A stretch of 64,000 nt of DNA from the NCBI GenBank assembly GCA_951406725.2, contig OX597818.1, positions 71,920,001 through 71,984,000 of the forward strand. Reading direction: 5' to 3'. Below the pieces are notes generated by a model, which did no database searches, was not told where the DNA came from, and worked only from the letters and a program-made list of their open reading frames with translations. Shown piece after piece: positions 15,088-51,700 of this stretch. How positions within the stretch are numbered: the first letter of the stretch is position 1; every line of letters begins with the position of its first letter. Source of the stretch: Octopus vulgaris. Its lineage: Eukaryota. A program made the position numbers and the translations under genes.

Positions 15088-15143
<56 letters not shown>

Positions 15144-15144
<1 letters not shown>

Positions 15145-15648
15145 TAAATCTCTGAACGAGGTATTAACAGTAGCTGTTCGACAACGTGAAGTATATTTGC
15201 CACTTAAATGTGGCTAACCACTAAGGGTGGATGCTACTGTAGCTTGTAGCTCCAGGACAACATCTTCTCCACCTGGCTATTGACACACTTTCTGTACCCT
15301 ATCAGTATTTGCAAAGGGAAGCCATCCTTCCTATCGTCGACCTGACGTGATACGCACGTAAAATATATATAGGGTATATGGAAAAAGGATATGTGTTTGC
15401 ATTGGGACACCATCGCATCGAAGACCGGTGATTGTCGTGCGCTGACGACGGGTAAATACCCAGAAACTCGGGTCCGTGCATATCACGTTAGGTCGACGAT
15501 GGGAAGGATGGCTTTCATTTGCAAATACTGATAGGGCACTGAAAGTGTATCAATAGCCAGGTGGAGAAGATGTTCTCCTGGGGCTACAAGCTACAGTAGC
15601 ATCCACCCTTAGTGGTTAGCCACATTTAAGATGCAAATATACTTCACG
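15144..15648. mobile_element. Fold-back hammerhead element (retrozyme/mini-PLE-like) in (TA)n
   Basis: Inverted arms 15186-15358 and 15475-15648 with an HHR in the spacer; homologous to 46447-47109. Confidence 0.8.
15437..15479 (+). ncRNA. Minimal type-I hammerhead ribozyme motif
   Basis: gtgcg-CTGACGA-c gggta aa taccc a-GAAA-C-tcgg-G-TC-cgtgc. Confidence 0.75.
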
Positions 15649-15704
15649 TATATATATATGTGTATGTGTGTGTGTGCGTGTGTGTGTGTGTGTCTGTGCG
15701 TGTG

Positions 15705-24422: not shown

Positions 24423-25839
24423 CAGGTGTTGGACAAAATAATGGAAACACCTAGTATCATAGCATCATAATTCTGAAATAACTATAAAACCGTCAGAAGC
24501 TTGTTTATTTTTTGATTTATTATTAGTGTTGCTTAATATGGTTTCCTAAAATTGCTGTTTCGTTTCAAATAGCATCACAAAAAGGTAATTAAAATTCATT
24601 AAAATGACAGATCTATCGGACTTTCAAAGTGGTCAAATTGTTGATGCTCGTATGGCAGGCTCTAGCGTAACGAAAACAGCCGAAATGTTTGGTATATCAA
24701 GGAGTACTATCTCGAAAGTAATGACAGCCTTTGAGAAAGGGGGAAGAACCTAGTCGAAATAAAACTCTGGAAGAGAACCAAAACTTTCAGATAGGAACTG
24801 TCGGACTCTTACGCGAATTGTTAGAAAAGATCTGAAAAGTACAGCTCCCTAAATTACTGCAGAGTTTAATGACCACATCGAGAACGCAGTTTCCACAAAA
24901 ACTGTTCGCCGGGAGCTGCATAAAGCTGTATCTCATTGGAGGGCTGTAATAAGAAAACCACCACTTTCAAAAACAAACGTTGCAAAGCGTTTACAGTGGA
25001 GTAAAAACGTACAGATTTAGAGAAGTGGAAGAATGTCATTTTCTCGGATGAGTCATCTATTACCTTATTTTCGACCACTGGCCGAGTACAGCCAAAAGGA
25101 GCTGGTCCAACTTATGCAAATCTGGTGATGACCTACCTAGAATTACAAATCTGTGAACAATCCAAATCAAAATACGGCCTGTCTTTCCACAAATACCTGA
25201 TGGATGATTGGAAATGCTACTTGGATGCCTGCCTCATCCTATGGTCTAACACATTCGACCAGCTGAATGAATTCAAAAATTTAATCAACAGACTGCCTTC
25301 TTCAAACTGTTAATCATGGAGGAGGATCTGTGATGATTTTTTTTTGGGGGGGGGGCAAAATTTGGGAATCCACCGGCTCAATGGTTTCCCTTCATGGCAG
25401 AATTAATAGTCAAGACTATTTAAGCATTTTATTTGATCAAATTCATCCTATGTTTGCGGAACTGTTTCTGGAGGGAAACGAAATCTTTCAGGATGATAAT
25501 GCACCAATTCACATAGCTAAAGTTGTTATTGACCGGCACGCGGAACACTCTAGTGATGTTAAATATCTTATCTGACCACCACAGTCCCTAGATCTGAATA
25601 TTATTGAATATTTATGGTGCATTTTAGAAAAACAAGTAAGTAGTCGGTGTAATTTACCATCATCACTACAAGAACTGGAGACTGTTTTAGCTGAAGTGTG
25701 GACAAAAATTCCTTTGGAAACATTTCAAACTTTGTACGAGTCCATACCTCGTAGAATTCAAGCTGTAGCTACTGTCAAAGGCGGTCCTACCCCATTATTA
25801 AAATAAATTTTTTTCCATTATTTTGTACAACAACCCTTG
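24423..25839 (+). mobile_element. Tc1-family DNA transposon with short TIRs, defective transposase
   Basis: TA|CAGGTGTTGGACAAAATAATGGAAA ... TTTCCATTATTTTGTACAACAACCCTTG. Frames encode MTDLSDFQSGQIV, VIFSDESS, FQDDNAPIH, SLDLNIIEYLW. Confidence 0.92.
25100..25291 (+). repeat. 192-bp copy of Penelope RT sequence (26216-26407) inserted in the Tc1 transposase
   Basis: Near-identical sequence; ORFs 25125 and 26241 share MMTYLELQICEQSKSKYGL... Confidence 0.92.
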
Positions 25840-25877
25840 AATATATATATATACATATATATAAAATGAGATAGGGG

Positions 25878-25910
<33 letters not shown>

Positions 25911-26049
25911 ATTAGATTTGATAAATATCCACATTTATGTAGTATAATGCCTTTACTGATATGTAATGGTGTAATAAAGTATTGATTGGGTATCATCTGA
26001 TAGTTGATGTTTTATTGATTTAAGTATGTTTCTCCATTTTCTAATTTTG

Positions 26050-26093
<44 letters not shown>

Positions 26094-26129
26094 ATTAGAG
26101 ATAAAACCACTATTAGGCAAATCATCGAG

Positions 26130-28650
26130 GGCCTTAAGTTTATCTTCGAAAACAACTTTTTAAATTTTAATAAGAAAACCTACAGACAGGTATCAGGGAC
26201 TGCAATAGATACTAAAGCTGGTCCAACTTATGCAAATCTGGTGATGACCTACCTAGAATTACAAATCTGTGAACAATCCAAATCAAAATACGGCCTGTCT
26301 TTCCACAAATACCTGATGGATGATTGGAAACGCTACTTGGATGCCTACCTCATCTTATGGTCTCACACATTCGACCAGCTGAATGAATTCAAAAATTTAA
26401 TCAACAGTGTCAACAACCATAAACAATTTACAATGGAATATAGTCAAGACCAACTTTCCTTTCAAGACATTCATATTATAAAAAGGCACCAACATTGAAA
26501 CTGATATCCACTACAAACCAACTGATTCCAAACAATACCTCTTGTACACTTCCAATCACCCAAAACATCTAAAGACAAACATCCCCTTCAATCTAGCAAG
26601 AAGAATCTGTACAATCGTCTCAAATTATAGAACACGAAATAAAAGACTCCAAGAACTAAAGGCAATTCTTCTCGAAGGACAGTACCCAGCTTCATTAGTT
26701 GACAATGTAATAGAACGAGCCAAGATAATCGATATCCAAGACTTACGAAAACCGAAACATACACAAGGAACATTAAATAGTCTTCCATATATCTCAGCAC
26801 ACAATCCAAGAAATACAGAAGCTTACGCGATTACATACAAGAACATCCCACTACTGAGTCAAGACCCACGTCTAAAAAAGCACCCGAAATCCATAAAATA
26901 ATAAAAAAGCAAGAGGCAACCCAAATCCCTAAAAAACTTACCAATGCAAAATTACCAAACACCCACCGTCAAAAAATATGTAGCCGGTCTAACTGCAGGA
27001 CTTGCATCCGCCTCATTGAAGGAACAATATACAAATTCCAGTCAGGACACACTTTTGTTGTAAAAAATAACTTTACATGCTCATCAAAAAATTTATTTTA
27101 TGCCATTAGGTATAAAGGGTACCGCAAAGACTACATAGGGCAGACTAGTCTTCCCTCAGAGATAGGATGACAGTCCACTGCCAACAATTGAGGGACCCCC
27201 ACCACAAGACAGATACCACTTAGATCTCTGTGCACAAAACAAGTCCTCCAAATTCCTAGTTTTCCCACTGTACCAATGCCCAGACAGCACCACTGAGCAA
27301 ACACGAATAAATAAGTAAAATATACTTATTCAAAAATACAGACCACAACTCAGCATACTCTAGCATAACCCCCAGGTACACATCCACAACAAACACTCAC
27401 AGAAATACAGATGTACAAACACACGCACAAATACAATGCAAACCTTCCACACAAACACTCACATGCATACACACACACACAAAACGCAATATTGTCACGA
27501 TCGAGCACAAACTTACACCCATTCCAAGAAAACACACTTACATATATACACCTGCAATACTATTCTAGCAATCACAACCAACACCCACATACACACACAC
27601 ATACAAACATACGTAAACACGTATATGGGTACACCTACACACACCGCCCTGACAATTACAAGGCACACTCATACAAACACACCCACACATACACAGATAC
27701 AAACACAAACACGCAAATACAATACAACCCACCCACACACACACGCATATATACACACATAGTACACACACACAAACACAACATGCCCGTTCCCCAGTAT
27801 AAAATCACACTCACGCTCAAAGAAAAAACACACACACACACATATATATATATATACACTATACAATCCCAAACAATTACAACAAACACTCACAGACACA
27901 CACACACATACATACAAATACAAGCACGCACACATATAATAAAACACACCACCCTGACAAATACAAGACACACAGACAGACATTTACAAACGAATCCACA
28001 CATGCAAACGAACCCACACTATACACACACTGTACAAACAATACAAATAAAACACAATAATATACCCAAATATATGCACCACATAGAAAAATAAAATGCA
28101 CTTACACGCGCATTCGCACGTATACACGCACTTCGCCACAACAAATATAGCACACACGCACACCCGAAAACCACATAAACCACACACACAAATGCATACT
28201 CAGTACAAAGACACACAGTACATACACGCACACACATACACACCACCCGGATAAACGTAACACACACGGACACACACAGAAACCCTGACAAATACAACAC
28301 ACTTACACACACATACACACCCACACACATATGCACCCTCACACACACACACACATACGGATGCACACACACACACACCACCGGACAATTATAATACTAC
28401 AAACATACACAGACAGAAACACACCAACAAACCTCACACACGATTTCTAAAAGTAGGAAACATCCATTAACGCACATTACAAGACTGGAGATGAAGGAAG
28501 AAAAGGTTGGTCATTCCCCTAAAATTCTGTATAAATACTTAAATATGATTCTTTCTGTATATATGCTTCTATACAATCATGATTTTTGATGAACTTAAAA
28601 CAATTATAAATTCAATTTACTACCTATTTTGAACATTTTCATCTTATTTA
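26130..28650 (+). mobile_element. Penelope-like element (RT + GIY-YIG endonuclease), 5'-truncated and decayed, with CA-rich 3' region
   Basis: YRQVSGTAIDTKAGPTYANLVM, KRYLDAYLILW, YKPTDSKQYL..SNHP..NIPFNLARRI, and GIY-YIG-like NLFYAI...DYIGQTS near 27090-27150. The 3' boundary is approximate. Confidence 0.9.
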
Positions 28651-44089: not shown

Positions 44090-44117
44090 TATATATATGT
44101 ATGTATGTATGTAAGTG

Positions 44118-44943: not shown

Positions 44944-46446
44944 ATATATATATATATATATATGTCAACCAATCTAATTACGTATTAAATGTTGATAAAA
45001 GATTACATATTTTGTAGCAGAAGCAGGAAGAGTAAGTAATATGCATACGAGAGGCGAGGATAAGTTAGAAATCATAGAAAAATATGGGAAATCATAGAAA
45101 AAGGTGGAATGGGTGAAAATGAGGGGAAGAAATGTCAGCGATACTGTTGGTAAATTTAAATGTTGCACACCTAGCGACAGACAAGACATCAAAATTTGTT
45201 GCATATAAAAGTCAACTACTAGAAGAGGTTGATGATGATGATAATGATGGTCGTGGTGGTGGTGGTATTGATGTAGAGGACGATTAATTACGATTGAATG
45301 AAATTCGAAGATCATACTTAAATCTAATAGAGGGAACAACATTTCTGTGGTACATTCAAGGAATGTATTGATAACTGAGCGGCATTTGGAGGTTGAAATA
45401 CAGGAGACACCCAAACGACAGAATGTTGGTGAAAATAATAGAAAGCATCAATGAATTCAAGCATATGTAACCTGAAAATGTGGGATGTTACCTACTGAAA
45501 CCCATCAACGAAATGTTAACAGGTATCTTCGATTCAAAGAGGCTGTAACACGATCAATAGGGAATAGGTAGTCACGTGGCTTTAACCCTCAATCGTAACC
45601 GGTAGTTTTTTAGTCGTGAGTAGGTGAAAATCAAAAATGTTTACCATGTTTATTTTCCTCGTAATTTCAAGTATTTGGCTTATGTTTAAGATATTGGTCC
45701 AAAAGCCAGTCAACAGTCTGCTGGTTCATTTATTGTGATCAGGTCTACATTACATCCGCGCTTGAAAGTATTCTCAATAACCCAGTCTATTTAGCTGTAA
45801 GTCGGTAACATAGTGTCATATAATTTATCTTGGCAAGCAGTGGCAATATAGTAAAACTGACTGTTGATTGACAGGCTTCAAAGTTTTGTTAAAACTTTCT
45901 ACAGAGGTAAAGTTACCTTCGAAAGCCTCGTATTCTAGAACCGTAAGATAGTTGTCTCTCATCCTGACAACACAATGAAAAACTGAAATCTCGAAACATT
46001 AAAAAAAAATTTCCCGTGATTAATCAATCTACTAAAAACAGCAGCTAAATTTCTGTCATCACACCATGCTTAATAAAATCCAACCTAGTGGGGAACGTGA
46101 ATATCGGTTAATATGGTCTGTGATAGATTATATCTTAAACAATTGTGTGATACGAACTGAACGTCTTTGATCACAGGCCTACTCTATTTCGATAGACCAG
46201 GTGCTAAACAGCAGCTTAAAAATTTGAGATCATCCTCGGTTTAATATACAAAAGAGGACCACCAGAAAGTTATGAAACTCTTATACTTTAGTTAAGCTAT
46301 ACGTAAAATAACAAAAGACAGTGATTTGAACTTGTTTATTCCTTGTCAAACATTTACAAACGTGAGAAAGAACTATCCACTCCTAAAACCCAGGTCTTGT
46401 TATCCACCTCACCGGAAGTGCCTTTTCTGCCAAATAGTTCAGTAAC

Positions 46447-47109
46447 AACGTAAGGTGTATTAGCCATCTGAATGTGGCTAGCCACTGTGTTACTACATAC
46501 GGACTATGATGAAGGAGTCCCCTTGCAAATAAATATATAACGTTTTTCACAGCAACCACTGTCACTGATTTAGAAAAACTGTCTGAAAACAATAATAAAT
46601 CTCTCAACGAGATATAAACAGTAACCGCTCGACAACGTAAGGTGTATTAGCCATCTGAATGTGGATAGCCACTGGGGGGGGGGGTGTTACTGATGCTTTT
46701 AGCCCCAGGCGATCAACGGTTACTGTTTATATCTCGTTCAGAGATTTATTATTGTTTTCAGACAGTTTTTCTAAATCAGTGACAGTGGTTGCTGTGAAAA
46801 ACGTTATATATTTATTTGCAAGGGGACTCCTTCATCGAAGACCGGTGCTTACCATGCGTTGACGAGAGGCAATTACCTTGAAACTATAGTCCGTATGTAG
46901 TACTCGGGTCTTCGATGGAGGATGACCTCCCTTTGCAAATAACACAAGGGCACTGAGATAGTGTCTAAAGTCCTTCTGGTGACGTTGATCACCTGGGGCT
47001 AAAAGCATCAGTACCCCCCCCCCCCAGTGGCTAGCCACATTCAGATGGCTAATACACCTTACGTTGTCGAGCGGTTACTGTTTATATCTCGTTCAGAGAT
47101 TTATTATTG
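46447..47109. mobile_element. Retrozyme-like element: 355-nt hammerhead monomer in partial tandem plus inverted permuted copies
   Basis: CGGTTACTGTTTATATCTCGTTCAGAGATTTATTATTG at 46717 and 47072. 46509-46718 is an inverted, circularly permuted copy, with a further inverted piece at 46447-46508. Confidence 0.85.
46854..46896 (+). ncRNA. Minimal type-I hammerhead motif (C-to-T at the first core base)
   Basis: atgcg-TTGACGA-gagg caatta cctt-GAAA-C-tata-G-TC-cgtat. Stem I is extended by CATCGAAGACC/GGTCTTCGATG. Confidence 0.75.
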
Positions 47110-48741
47110 AGTTCAGTAATAGTCTACGCTGTAAGTCCTCGTTTTCAGTTCGTCTTCTACGAGCTCACGGGCGATGCCTTACGCTATCATATATAAGACA
47201 TTTTGCTCGGTTTGAGGTAATCGATATTTATTCTTGCAATGCATATAATCACCCATTCTTTAATTCATTCATTCTTTTATTCTCATATTCATTCTTTCAT
47301 TCCCTCACTTTAATTCAGTTATTCCTTTCATTTGTATTTGTAACAATGGCGCATAGAAAAGTGTATTGTTTAAAACCAGACGACAGTGAATTATTAAACA
47401 GGACGATATGAAAGGCAGAAGAAAAGCATGACGTAATAGATATGTGTAATGTATGGCGAATCAAAACACATACATATGTATCTGTTTGTATACATACATA
47501 AATGTGTATTCGTATGTAAGTATACATATGTGCGTATAAGTGTATATATATATATATATATATGTACACACACGCACACAACTTTATTTATGTATACAAA
47601 TATCAATCTATCTATATACACATCTTTAAATATATGTATGCATACACAAGCATTATATCTATACATATAAATTTGACATGGGTGATTCTTTCTTGTCTCG
47701 GGATTCACGGTCCAACGCGAACATTTACACAGATGTGTAGAATGATCCGGTTGTGATGCTGGGCTTCGTATTTTTTCACAGCTCCCATGGTTACCGAGAT
47801 AATCTACTATAATAATACTCTTGCGTTTATGAATGAGAAAGGAAGGGGTAATAGATGAATAAAGACGGAAGGGTTGATGTTGGTAGTGGGATGAGGAAAA
47901 TTGCACACTGAAAAAATATATCAAACAGCGTTTCAACTCTGTGTGAATATAAAAAGGTGTATGTAAAAGGGGATATGTGAATGTGTGTGTGCGCGTGTCC
48001 CCCCCCCAATGGAAGTGGGATGCTTCATCTTTGTTCGCTTAGTATTTGGGTTTATTTTTTGATTCGGTTGAATCTTGGTTGGTTTTTTTTTTTTTGTTGG
48101 TCAGTTATTTTTAGCGTCTTAACAGAAAAAAGTCATTCTAAAATTGTTTTTTAACATAAACATGCCCAAACAAGACAAATGCTTACAAAGAGCAGGTTGA
48201 GAGCCACATCAACCAAACCGACCGGCTGAAACCAGGCTTAGCTCCTAGTAAACATATAAACATGTCTTCACTCATCTCAGCTTCCGTTTGTCCAGTGCAT
48301 GTGCAGAAGTTGAAATGGATCCAACCTGGTATCGAAACCATGTCAGACAATTCTGTCACCTGATATATATATTTAAATATAATATAACAGGAGGTGGGGG
48401 AACTGAAAAAAGAATTTCTTTGAACTTTTATTTTTTTACTTAAATCGCACTTTTTTTTTAAAATGTAAGCAATGTAATCTGATAACGATTTTTCAACCAA
48501 TCAAATCACATGCTATCATTTAGTGTATATGAGAATTCTCTGTATTTGCTATTGCAATAGATCCTATGGAACTGATAGAAATAACAGCTAAATTTCACAC
48601 AAATCGCACCATCCCGTCTTGCATATATAAGTATATGCATGAACCATCATGGAAGTCTTTTCTTGGTAGCTAGGCAACCCAGTATTTACATGTGTTTATT
48701 CATAACTTTATGTACCTCGAGACCCAGCTCCAAAAAAGGGA

Positions 48742-51700
48742 ATCATCATCATCATCATCATCATCGTTTAGTGTCTGCTTTCCATGCTAGCATAGGTTGG
48801 ACGGTTTGACTGAGGACTGGTGAACCAGAGGCTGCAATAAGAGCAATCTGATCTAGCAAAATTACTACAGCTGGATGCCCTTCCTAACGCCTACCACTCC
48901 GAGAGTGTAATGGGTGCTTTTACGTACCACCGGCATGAGGATCAGTCAGGCGGTTCTGGCAACGATCACGCTCAAAAGGTGTTTTTACGTGCTACCTGCA
49001 CAGGAGCCAATCCGGCGGCACTGGCAACGACCACGCTCAAATGTTGTTTTTCACGTGCCACCGGCACATGTGCTGGTAAGGCGACGCTGTTAACGATCAC
49101 GCTCGAATGGTGTTTTTCACGTGTCACCGGCACGGGAGCTAATCCGTGGCCCTGGCAACGATCACGCTCAGATGTGCTTTTAACGTTCCACTGGCATGAC
49201 TACCAATCAGGCGGTACTGTCATCGGCCACGTCAGCAAATTTGATTTGGTTACACTTGCCTCAATAGGTCTTCGCAAGCAATGTTCATTGTCCAATGGAT
49301 GAGGGGTACTCATAAGTGGGCCGGTTACACTCCATGTTCCGCTATGCTTTAAACGTTCCACAGGCACGAGTGTCAATCAGGCGGTACTGTCATCAGCCAC
49401 GACATTGATTTTGATTTTGCTTTGAGTTCACTTGCCTCAATAGGTCTTACCAAGCAAAGTTTATTGTCCAATGAATGAGAGGTATCCATGAGTGGGCTGG
49501 TTACACCCACTGACATAGGCCATGGTCCCACTTAGCTTGCCGGGTCTTCTCGAGCACAGCATATCTCCAAAGGTTTCGGTCACTAATCATTGCCTCGGTA
49601 AGGCCCAATGTTCGAAGGTCGTGCTTCACTACCTCATCCCAGGTTATCCTGGGTTTACCTCTTCCACAGGTTCCCTCTACTGCTAGGGTGTGACACTTTT
49701 TCACACAGCTGTCCTCATTCATTTGCAACACATGACCATACCAGTGCAGTCGTCTCTCTTGCACACCACATCTGATGCTAATTTAAATCCAACTTTTCTC
49801 TCAGGGCGCTTACACTCTGTCGTGTATGCACACAGACATTACACATCTAGCGGGCCATACTGACTTCATTCCTTGCAAGCTTACGCATGTCTTCAGCAGT
49901 CACGGCCCATGGTCCACTACCGTGAAGCATGGCTGTTCGTACACATGCGTCGTACAGTCTACCTGAGCGAGAGGTGCTTTGTCACCAGCTGATGTAGCTC
50001 TCTGAACTTCGCCCAGGCTATTTTTATTCTAGCAGCTACACTTTTAGAGCATCCACCCCTGACTTGGTCCCCTAGGTAACGAAGCTATCAACTACTTCTA
50101 GTTTTTCTCCCTGGAATGTGACAGAAGCTGTTCTCTGCACATTGTCAGTGTTTATAGCACCTGAGCATTTGCCACATACAAAAACTATCTTCCCAGTTAG
50201 CCTCCCTTTGATATTGCTGCACCTCTTATGTATCCATAGCTGACACTGGGTACATCTTATATAGTTTCTACCTACACCTCTACTACAGATCAAGCAGGGC
50301 CATCTACCTGAAGGGATTTGTGGTTTTTCTGCCTTCCTACTTATTAAGACTTTGGCTTTAGCTAGGTTGACTCTAAGGCCCTTCGATTCTAATCCTTGCT
50401 TCCACACCTAAAACTTTTCCTCTAGTTCTGATAGGGACTCAGCAATAAGAGCAAGGTCATCAGCATAGAGGAGCTCCCAGGGGCAGCCTGTCTTGAATTC
50501 CTCTGTTATTGCCTGGAGGACTATGATGAATAAGAGGGAGCTGAGGACTGATCCTTGGTGGACCCCTACCTCTACCCGGAATTTTTCACAGTACGCGTTG
50601 CCAATCCTCACCTTACTGACAGCATTCCTATACATGGCTTGCACAGCTCTCACTAACCATCATCTATCCTTAGTTGCCAGATAAGGGATTGAGGGACCTT
50701 GTTAAAGGCTTTCTCCATGTCAAGGAAAGCCAGGTATAGAGGTTTATCTTTGGCTAGATATTTCTTTTGCAGCTGTCTTACCAGAAATATAGCATCAGTG
50801 GTGCTTTTCTCTGGCACGAACCCAAACTACATCTCATCTAGACTGACTCTCTCCCTAATTACTTGGGCTATGACCTTCTCCGTGACCTTCATTACCTGAT
50901 CCAACAACTTGATACCTCTGTAATAATTTGTATCTAAAGCGTCATCTTTACCTTTGTAGCAGTTGACTATGATGCTGCTACACCAGTCATTGGATATGAC
51001 TCATTCATGTATCACCTGGTTAACTATACGGATGACTAGGTTATAGCCGACACCGCCAGATATTTTGAGCATCTCTGCGGTGATACCTGATGGGTCGGGG
51101 TTTTTCCCTGTCTTCATACTCATAACTGCTTTATCTACCAAGGTACTGTCAATTCAGATAGCTGGTCCCTCTGTTGGGTCGACATTCGGCAGACTCTCTT
51201 TATTGAGTAACCATTCATAGTGGCGTCTCCACACCTCTCTCTTTGCAGCCTTGTTTAGTGCAAATGAACCATCATCCATTCGAACACATTTCTCTCCTAC
51301 GCCATCACGATTCTCTCTCACACACTGTCTTGCAACACGAAATACCTCAAGTCTTTGGTCCTCACGGCGCAGAACATTGGTAAATTTTTTCTTATCTGCT
51401 TCCCCTCATGCTAAATAAACCTATCTCCTAGCTTCCCTCCTGGCAATCCGATACAATTCCCTGCTGCCATCGTTCTTCCAGTCCTTCCAAGCCTGTTTCT
51501 TTTCCCTAATGGCTCTGTCAAAAACATTGTTCCACCACCACGTTACCTTGGGTCGAGAGGGGACTTTGCACCATCTACAGATCAGGTCAGTGGCCCTCAG
51601 CAGGTTGTCCAGTAGAAACCTCCAGTTGTCTTTCATATCATGCTGGGCATCGATTTAGACCTGATCCTGAGGTCGCTAACTACTAGTCTATGTTGTAGGG

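What the first reader, a model, noticed from the sequence alone, without database searches (positions are those of the whole stretch)
46447..47109. 355-nt hammerhead monomer present as tandem and inverted, circularly permuted copies
Seen: the plus-strand unit 46717-47071 restarts at 47072. Its left neighbour 46509-46718 is an inverted copy that reads through the same monomer junction. The outermost inverted piece jumps from the HHR stem III loop (ACTAT) to GATGAAGGAG, deleting the catalytic core. There is no ORF. Known: metazoan retrozymes are tandem monomers of a few hundred nt that yield circular RNAs. Inference: reverse transcription around a circular or multimeric RNA with template switching would give this layout.
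Basis: partly seen in the sequence, partly recalled or inferred. Interest (0 to 1): 0.72.

Follow-up and report, generated by a model that had tools for sequence, protein, structure and literature searches.

The report
Penelope-inserted hammerhead retrozyme, ribozyme-cut hybrids
This is one recent, two-armed insertion of a 355-base protein-less repeat with a predicted self-cutting RNA, likely pasted by a Penelope-type retrotransposon; rare sister copies joined to other RNA copies exactly at the predicted cut site likely record that ribozyme cutting inside cells.

Summary
The layout is real, but 'circular permutation' is the wrong reading. Window 46446-47109 is one insertion with a 10-bp target-site duplication; the empty site exists in two public runs. 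The 355-nt unit carries a minimal type I hammerhead whose stems covary across subfamilies. The family has hundreds of copies (252 exact core matches). Outer ends are not permuted: 210 of 238 arms end at one of two fixed points about 45 nt apart, the 'tail' signature of Penelope-like elements (PLEs). 56 of 78 inverted pairs use one end of each kind. It is a non-LTR retrozyme, likely moved by PLE machinery through two primings from one cut. The ribozyme-deleted arm is a one-off rearrangement. Best side find: three independent hybrids join this ribozyme's predicted 3' cut end to the predicted cut start of a coding PLE. A single monomeric circle as template is possible but not shown: 20 rare variants are shared by only some units of an insertion. 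No parent PLE was found. The scan reported the same kind of element and hybrids before on other DNA of this genome.

The parts
46436..46445 (+). Left target-site duplication, 10 bp (AGTTCAGTAA)
   Evidence: Identical to 47110-47119; empty-site contigs join 46435 to 47110 with 10 letters fitting either side
46446..46718 (-). Inverted arm, outer end at unit position 350 (short, tail-less start). RNA sense: 267-355, 1-120, deletion 121-169, 170-186, deletion 187 to about 296, short remnant, 309-350
46491..46507 (-). Hammerhead remnant (positions 170-186); keeps the cut-site junction but lacks the catalytic core
   Evidence: 17/17 identical
46717..46718 (.). 2-nt overlap (CG) where the two arms meet
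   Evidence: inner junctions of sister insertions often overlap by a few bases
46717..47109 (+). Direct arm, 393 nt: one 355-nt unit plus positions 1-38, outer end at the long (tail) start
46853..46897 (+). Minimal type I hammerhead: stem I 46853-46858 / 46892-46897, core TTGACGA 46859-46865, stem II 46867-46869 / 46876-46878, GAAA 46880-46883, palindromic stem III 46883-46890, predicted cut 46891|46892
   Evidence: Sequence; 94.7% of cells paired, 13 two-sided changes in 16 distinct sequences; hybrids end exactly at this site
46812..46942 (+). Long predicted RNA stem (positions 96-133 with 183-226) that extends stem I
   Evidence: Fold z = -5.7 for the circular unit; pair 124-194 GC in 69 arms, AT in 32
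47067..47109 (+). About 43-nt 'tail' between the two fixed outer ends, present only on the direct arm's outer end
   Evidence: matches the PLE tail described in PMC11167929 and PMC8557442
47110..47119 (+). Right target-site duplication, 10 bp

Best explanation
This is a single recent insertion of a non-coding hammerhead repeat (non-LTR retrozyme) that was likely written into the genome by the reverse transcriptase and GIY-YIG nuclease of a Penelope-like element. Shown: one event with a 10-bp TSD and an empty allele, two back-to-back arms, two fixed outer ends, and a conserved hammerhead. Inferred: the nuclease makes a staggered cut of about 12-13 nt in AT-rich DNA; each DNA end primes reverse transcription, one at position about 349 and the other at about 38-41; both cDNAs run on through the ribozyme site because the RNA is uncut or re-joined (circle or multimer); they stop at variable points and join head to head. 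The two deletions in the left arm are likely template jumps across the structured region. The ribozyme is predicted to cut as a dimer, and its cut ends are likely real in cells, because rare hybrids start or stop exactly there.
For: Fixed outer ends in 210 of 238 arms, and 56 of 78 inverted pairs have one short and one tail end. Of 55 such insertions, 33 sit in low-complexity TA-type targets; 20 of the other 22 have 10-16-bp TSDs (15 of 12-13 bp), against 9 of 110 shifted controls with 10 bp or more. Empty site in runs X15 and X16, one study. Units of one insertion share subfamily alleles (3.8-4.6% mismatch against 40% between loci) and rare variants (33/272 same arm, 32/367 opposite arm, 397/96401 between loci). 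134 of 211 arms cross the cut site; only 5 of 207 inner ends lie at 170-181, against 7 expected. Stem III is a different palindrome in each of three subfamilies: CTATAG, CTCGAG, CTGCAG. Intact 781-codon RT + GIY-YIG frames exist in the genome. A PLE protein cuts and extends both strands and starts at two internal sites flanking the tail (PMC11167929, main text).
Against: No coding PLE that shares this unit's ends was found among 50 GIY-YIG loci; the one 71% match lies 640 bp beyond that PLE's repeat and is a separate insertion. The mobiliser is therefore inferred from the footprint only. Cleavage, circles and expression were not observed. The core has U3 opposite G8, where the classic ribozyme has C3; Li et al. 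saw cleavage in only 1 of 9 tested retrozyme dimers. Of rare variants at sites covered by three or more units, 117 are single, 20 are shared by a subset and only 5 by all, so identical units from one circle do not explain every insertion. Loci were chosen by similarity or by exact motifs, so the sample is not random.
Confidence: 0.85

Rival explanations
1. Sub-model: the template is one monomeric 355-nt circle and the RT rolls round it from both DNA ends.
For: No pile-up of inner ends at the cut site (5 of 207). Adjacent units in one arm differ no more (1.9%) than matching units of opposite arms (2.0%). Some rare variants are in every unit of both arms (L124, L126). Hybrids show that cut ends can be joined and copied. 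Circles are shown for coral, mussel and axolotl retrozymes (PMC7229834).
Against: 20 subset-shared against 5 all-shared rare variants. The L020 pattern fits unequal crossover after insertion, so three-unit arms need not be rolling products. Divergence rises with unit distance (1.9, 2.8, 7.4%; the last on 190 sites, confounded by locus).
Confidence: 0.45
2. Sub-model: the template is an uncleaved linear multimer transcribed from a tandem donor; the ribozyme acts elsewhere in the cycle.
For: Unprocessed RNA was the dominant substrate of a PLE in vitro and ribozyme mutants inserted normally (PMC11167929). Cross-arm subset sharing (L068, L135, L154) fits a template with unlike units. Minimal dimer-type hammerheads cut weakly in vitro (PMC4209133, abstract).
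Against: Only 9 of 161 unit-specific variants recur in two or more insertions, several at likely hot spots, so no common donor array is visible. Gene conversion after insertion also gives subset sharing.
Confidence: 0.4
3. The copies are 5'-truncated terminal repeats of a coding PLE, not a separate non-coding element.
For: Inverted truncated repeats with a tail are typical of coding PLEs (PMC8557442); family B in this genome is such a case.
Against: Arms read on into further units (up to 1239 nt). No recurring flank abuts the 5' ends of single-arm copies, apart from one unrelated pair. PLE protein hits in 11 retrozyme loci are scattered fragments, none shown to be continuous with a unit.
Confidence: 0.07
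4. Assembly artefact, or a DNA-level inverted duplication after insertion.
For: No public contig clearly bridged the inner junctions of the filled allele.
Against: Exact TSD, empty allele, and the same architecture at 55 other loci.
Confidence: 0.02

Closest known systems
Metazoan non-LTR retrozymes (PMC7229834: passages and Discussion read; bioRxiv 10.64898/2026.07.22.740005: main text parts 1-3 of 5 read)
   Same: Non-coding unit of a few hundred bases (mussel 350-390 bp), type I hammerhead, tandem copies, GC under 50%, TSDs longer than 4 bp, co-occurrence with PLEs.
   Different: Here the hammerhead is the minimal PLE-type motif and most copies are dispersed one- or two-armed insertions. 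The parts I read propose PLE mobilisation from shared motifs, co-occurrence and pLTR phylogeny; they do not describe two fixed ends, inverted arms or cut-site hybrids. Supplements were not seen.
EN+ Penelope-like elements (PMC8557442: passages; PMC11167929: main text parts 1-2 of 4; PMC4209133: part 1 of 4)
   Same: 5' truncation, partial tandems, inverted truncated copy, tail at one end only, two start sites, AT-rich and microsatellite targets, minimal hammerhead with palindromic helix III.
   Different: No ORF; tail about 43-47 nt against 30-40 bp; no sequence link to a coding family found.
U6/LINE-1 chimeras made by RtcB ligation (PMC6789731: abstract and outline)
   Same: An RNA predicted to end in 2',3'-cyclic phosphate is joined to a retrotransposon RNA with a 5'-OH and then retrotransposed.
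   Different: Here both ends would be made by hammerheads of two different families; ligation is inferred from DNA only.

Membership tests
Non-LTR retrozyme | Non-coding unit of about 150-450 bp in tandem copies | tested here: met
   355 nt, longest ATG ORF 67 codons; arms of up to 3.5 units
Non-LTR retrozyme | Type I hammerhead in the unit | tested here: met
   Motif and covariation; none of 25 subfamily-diagnostic sites falls in 136-181. Rfam models do not score it
Non-LTR retrozyme | Dispersed by retrotransposition, TSD longer than 4 bp | tested here: met
Non-LTR retrozyme | At least two consecutive complete hammerheads at the locus ('active' by Li et al.) | tested here: not met
   This locus has one complete motif, so it would be a dead-end copy; sister loci have two or three
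Non-LTR retrozyme | Self-cleavage and circular RNA in vivo | not testable with these tools
   Only indirect: hybrids and arm ends at the predicted site
PLE-mobilised element | Two fixed 3' ends with a tail between them | tested here: met
   210 of 238 arms
PLE-mobilised element | Inverted 5'-truncated copy, tail at one end only | tested here: met
   56 of 78 inverted pairs
PLE-mobilised element | Sequence shared with the pLTR of a coding partner | tested here: inconclusive
   None among 50 GIY-YIG loci out of 6136 candidates
Autonomous EN+ PLE | RT + GIY-YIG ORF | tested here: not met

The most novel reading that the evidence does not exclude
Hammerheads of a retrozyme and of a coding Penelope element both cut in the germ line, and a host ligase joins the cut ends across families. 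The hybrid RNAs are then retrotransposed, leaving genomic fossils that map both cut sites to the base and show the same chemistry that would close retrozyme circles. Three hybrids (L051, L179, L231) carry three different common alleles of the partner, so they arose separately. The alternative is an end-to-end jump of the RT between cut RNAs, which still requires cleavage in vivo.
Probability: 0.5. Interest if true: 0.7.

Novelty: new member of a known kind. Interest (0 to 1): 0.5.

Why it matters
How animal retrozymes get back into the genome is open in the papers read: PLEs are named as candidates without an insertion footprint. This family shows the PLE footprint in dozens of young copies and names the two start points to test in vitro. 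Whether PLE-type minimal hammerheads cut in cells is also open: PMC11167929 found no RNA-seq reads ending at the site. The hybrids give base-exact, testable evidence that they do. I found no paper on such hybrids in five searches.

Tried and rejected
Rfam: no match at gathering threshold; the MIR821 hit only reflects the inverted repeat. Expression: no RNA holder listed; the four guessed-RNA contig sets laid cannot show a circle, strand or level, and gave no joints. Filled allele in public contigs: no clear bridge of the inner junctions. Parent PLE: the 71% match in L285 was rejected as a separate insertion; a search with it returned another ORF-less subfamily with the same ends. The 502-codon frame beside L041 is a neighbouring endonuclease-RT-like frame in the flank, judged by eye. 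Reciprocal hybrids (partner 5' part + this unit's 3' part): none in 1 match and 13 matches; about 8 of those 13 are arms whose inner end lies within 3 nt of the cut site, but I ran no control position, so I do not count this. Other partners upstream of family B's cut start: 48 of 100 matches inspected, only the known hybrids plus point variants, fold-backs and three unexplained junctions. Excess of inner ends at 295-320 and 347-355 was not used because the uniform null is wrong for short arms. Look-up of earlier findings by sequence was empty.

Full report
Observation. Positions are counted on the unit, window 46717 = 1. The direct arm is 46717-47109 (1-355, then 1-38). The inverted arm is 46446-46718 and reads, in RNA sense, 267-355, 1-120, 170-186, a short remnant and 309-350. 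The arms overlap by CG at 46717-46718. The insertion is flanked by a 10-bp duplication. Contigs from runs X15 and X16 (one study) join 46435 to 47110 with 10 letters fitting either side, so the whole structure is one event and an empty allele exists. There is no ORF of note. The window lies in a 2.8-Gb genome, G000:C5.

The ribozyme. Rfam does not score it. The sequence at 46853-46897 has the layout of the minimal type I hammerheads of PLEs described in PMC4209133 (part 1 read): 6-bp stem I, core, an extra base before stem II, GAAA, a palindromic helix III and a predicted cut after position 175. In 17 aligned copies from three subfamilies (16 distinct), 94.7% of cells pair and 13 cells change on both sides, above all 500 shuffles and all slid controls; these counts reflect few independent events. 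Helix III is CTATAG, CTCGAG or CTGCAG, always a palindrome in the commonest form, which fits dimer action. None of 25 subfamily-diagnostic sites lies in 136-181. The window's subfamily has U3 where the older subfamilies have C3. Activity was not measured.

The family. Exact 24-nt core and 22-nt tail motifs match 252 and 426 places. I parsed 190 fetched loci, 141 after removing overlaps; two later proved segmental duplicates and were dropped from then on. Of 238 arms, 109 end at 343-352, 101 at 34-45 and 28 elsewhere. Of 78 inverted pairs, 56 have one end of each kind. Inner ends are spread over the unit. In 55 two-armed insertions, 33 targets were low-complexity TA-type; 20 of the other 22 had TSDs of 10-16 bp, mode 13, against 9 of 110 shifted controls (the tally of 20 was made by hand). 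This matches the PLE description: inverted truncated copy, tail at one end, microsatellite bias (PMC8557442, passages), and two internal RT starts with both strands cut and extended (PMC11167929, main text). It is not L1-type twin priming (recalled model), because the inverted arm starts at a fixed point unrelated to where the direct arm stops. The genome holds many RT + GIY-YIG elements, some with intact 781-codon frames. Their linker has a Cys motif, which PMC8557442 ties to Neptune and Nematis; I did not test the clade. None of 50 such loci shares this unit's ends.

Template. 134 of 211 arms cross the predicted cut site, 19 of them twice or more, and inner ends do not pile up there (5 of 207). 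The RNA was therefore uncut or re-joined. Units within an insertion come from one source: they share subfamily alleles and rare variants far more than unrelated loci do, and equally across the two arms. But a single monomeric circle is not sufficient: among rare variants at sites covered by three or more units, 117 are single, 20 are in a subset and 5 are in all. L020 fits unequal crossover after insertion. Circle, uncleaved multimer and later conversion cannot be separated here.

Cut-site hybrids. All 5 genome matches of 'core through position 175, then a purine' are hybrids at three loci; one is locally duplicated and one has two arms. Each joins position 175 to a second family, B, directly after B's own predicted cut site, within the ambiguity of an A run and without microhomology. 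B has a U3-A8 core, a variant noted in PMC4209133, and a palindromic helix III, though its stem I is short and its core has GCAA, so its activity is less sure. B lies about 900 nt behind the stop of a broken RT-GIY-YIG frame in L378, so it is the terminal repeat of a coding PLE. The three hybrids carry three B alleles, each common in ordinary B copies (33, 16 and 21 matches), and two alleles of this unit, so they are separate events. A further search gave 2 matches: L376 joins 175 to position 277 of the same unit with 1 nt of microhomology, and in L377 an arm ends at 175/176 against the flank. In the parsed sample three loci end at 175 against 6 ends over the next 165 positions (Poisson p about 1e-5; the site was noticed before the test). 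Inference: both ribozymes cut in vivo. Joining is by a ligase, as for U6/L1 (PMC6789731, abstract) and for retrozyme circles in vitro (PMC7229834), or by an RT jump onto a cut 3' end; L376 leans to the jump or to a nuclease-made 5' end.

Comparison and verdict. It meets the sequence criteria of a non-LTR retrozyme and works like a non-autonomous PLE, the link argued in bioRxiv 10.64898/2026.07.22.740005. This particular copy has one complete ribozyme and is likely a dead end. The class is known; the insertion footprint and the hybrids were not found in five paper searches, and supplements of those papers were not seen. Earlier notes of this scan describe the same footprint and cut-site hybrids for other units of this genome; I found mine before that look-up and do not count the notes as support. 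Novelty: new member of a known kind. Interest 0.5.

Noticed in passing
L051 1490-1632, L179 1418-1690, L231 1400-1630 (G000:C1:1716100, C5:142466247, C15:13484386): Hybrids of this hammerhead's 5' part with PLE family B at both predicted cut sites. All three begin at unit positions about 122-130, near an ACCGGT palindrome; unexplained.
   Followed up: yes
L376 1487-1570 and L377 near 1500: Two more junctions at position 175: one to position 277 of the same unit, one straight to the flank.
   Followed up: partly
window 15141-15649: Older subfamily copy (71% identical) with the same two-armed layout in a TA repeat and a C3-type hammerhead core.
   Followed up: partly
L276-L283: Young PLE family with many intact 781-codon RT + GIY-YIG frames; a candidate mobiliser. 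A minimal hammerhead-like motif was seen near related copies (L251, L295).
   Followed up: partly
window 25077-27360: Degraded PLE coding fragments, 36-48% identical to the 781-codon protein.
   Followed up: no
L300/L301, L307, L329: Family B copies whose cut-site start is preceded by unrelated sequence; possible further hybrids.
   Followed up: no
L020, L010, L011: Multi-unit arms with nested shared variants that fit tandem expansion after insertion.
   Followed up: partly
L027, L129, L168: One insertion carried by larger duplications on two chromosomes (shared private variants).
   Followed up: partly
window 48913-49506: 65-bp and 176-bp tandem repeats, and a 238-bp direct repeat at 44112/44712; not examined.
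   Followed up: no
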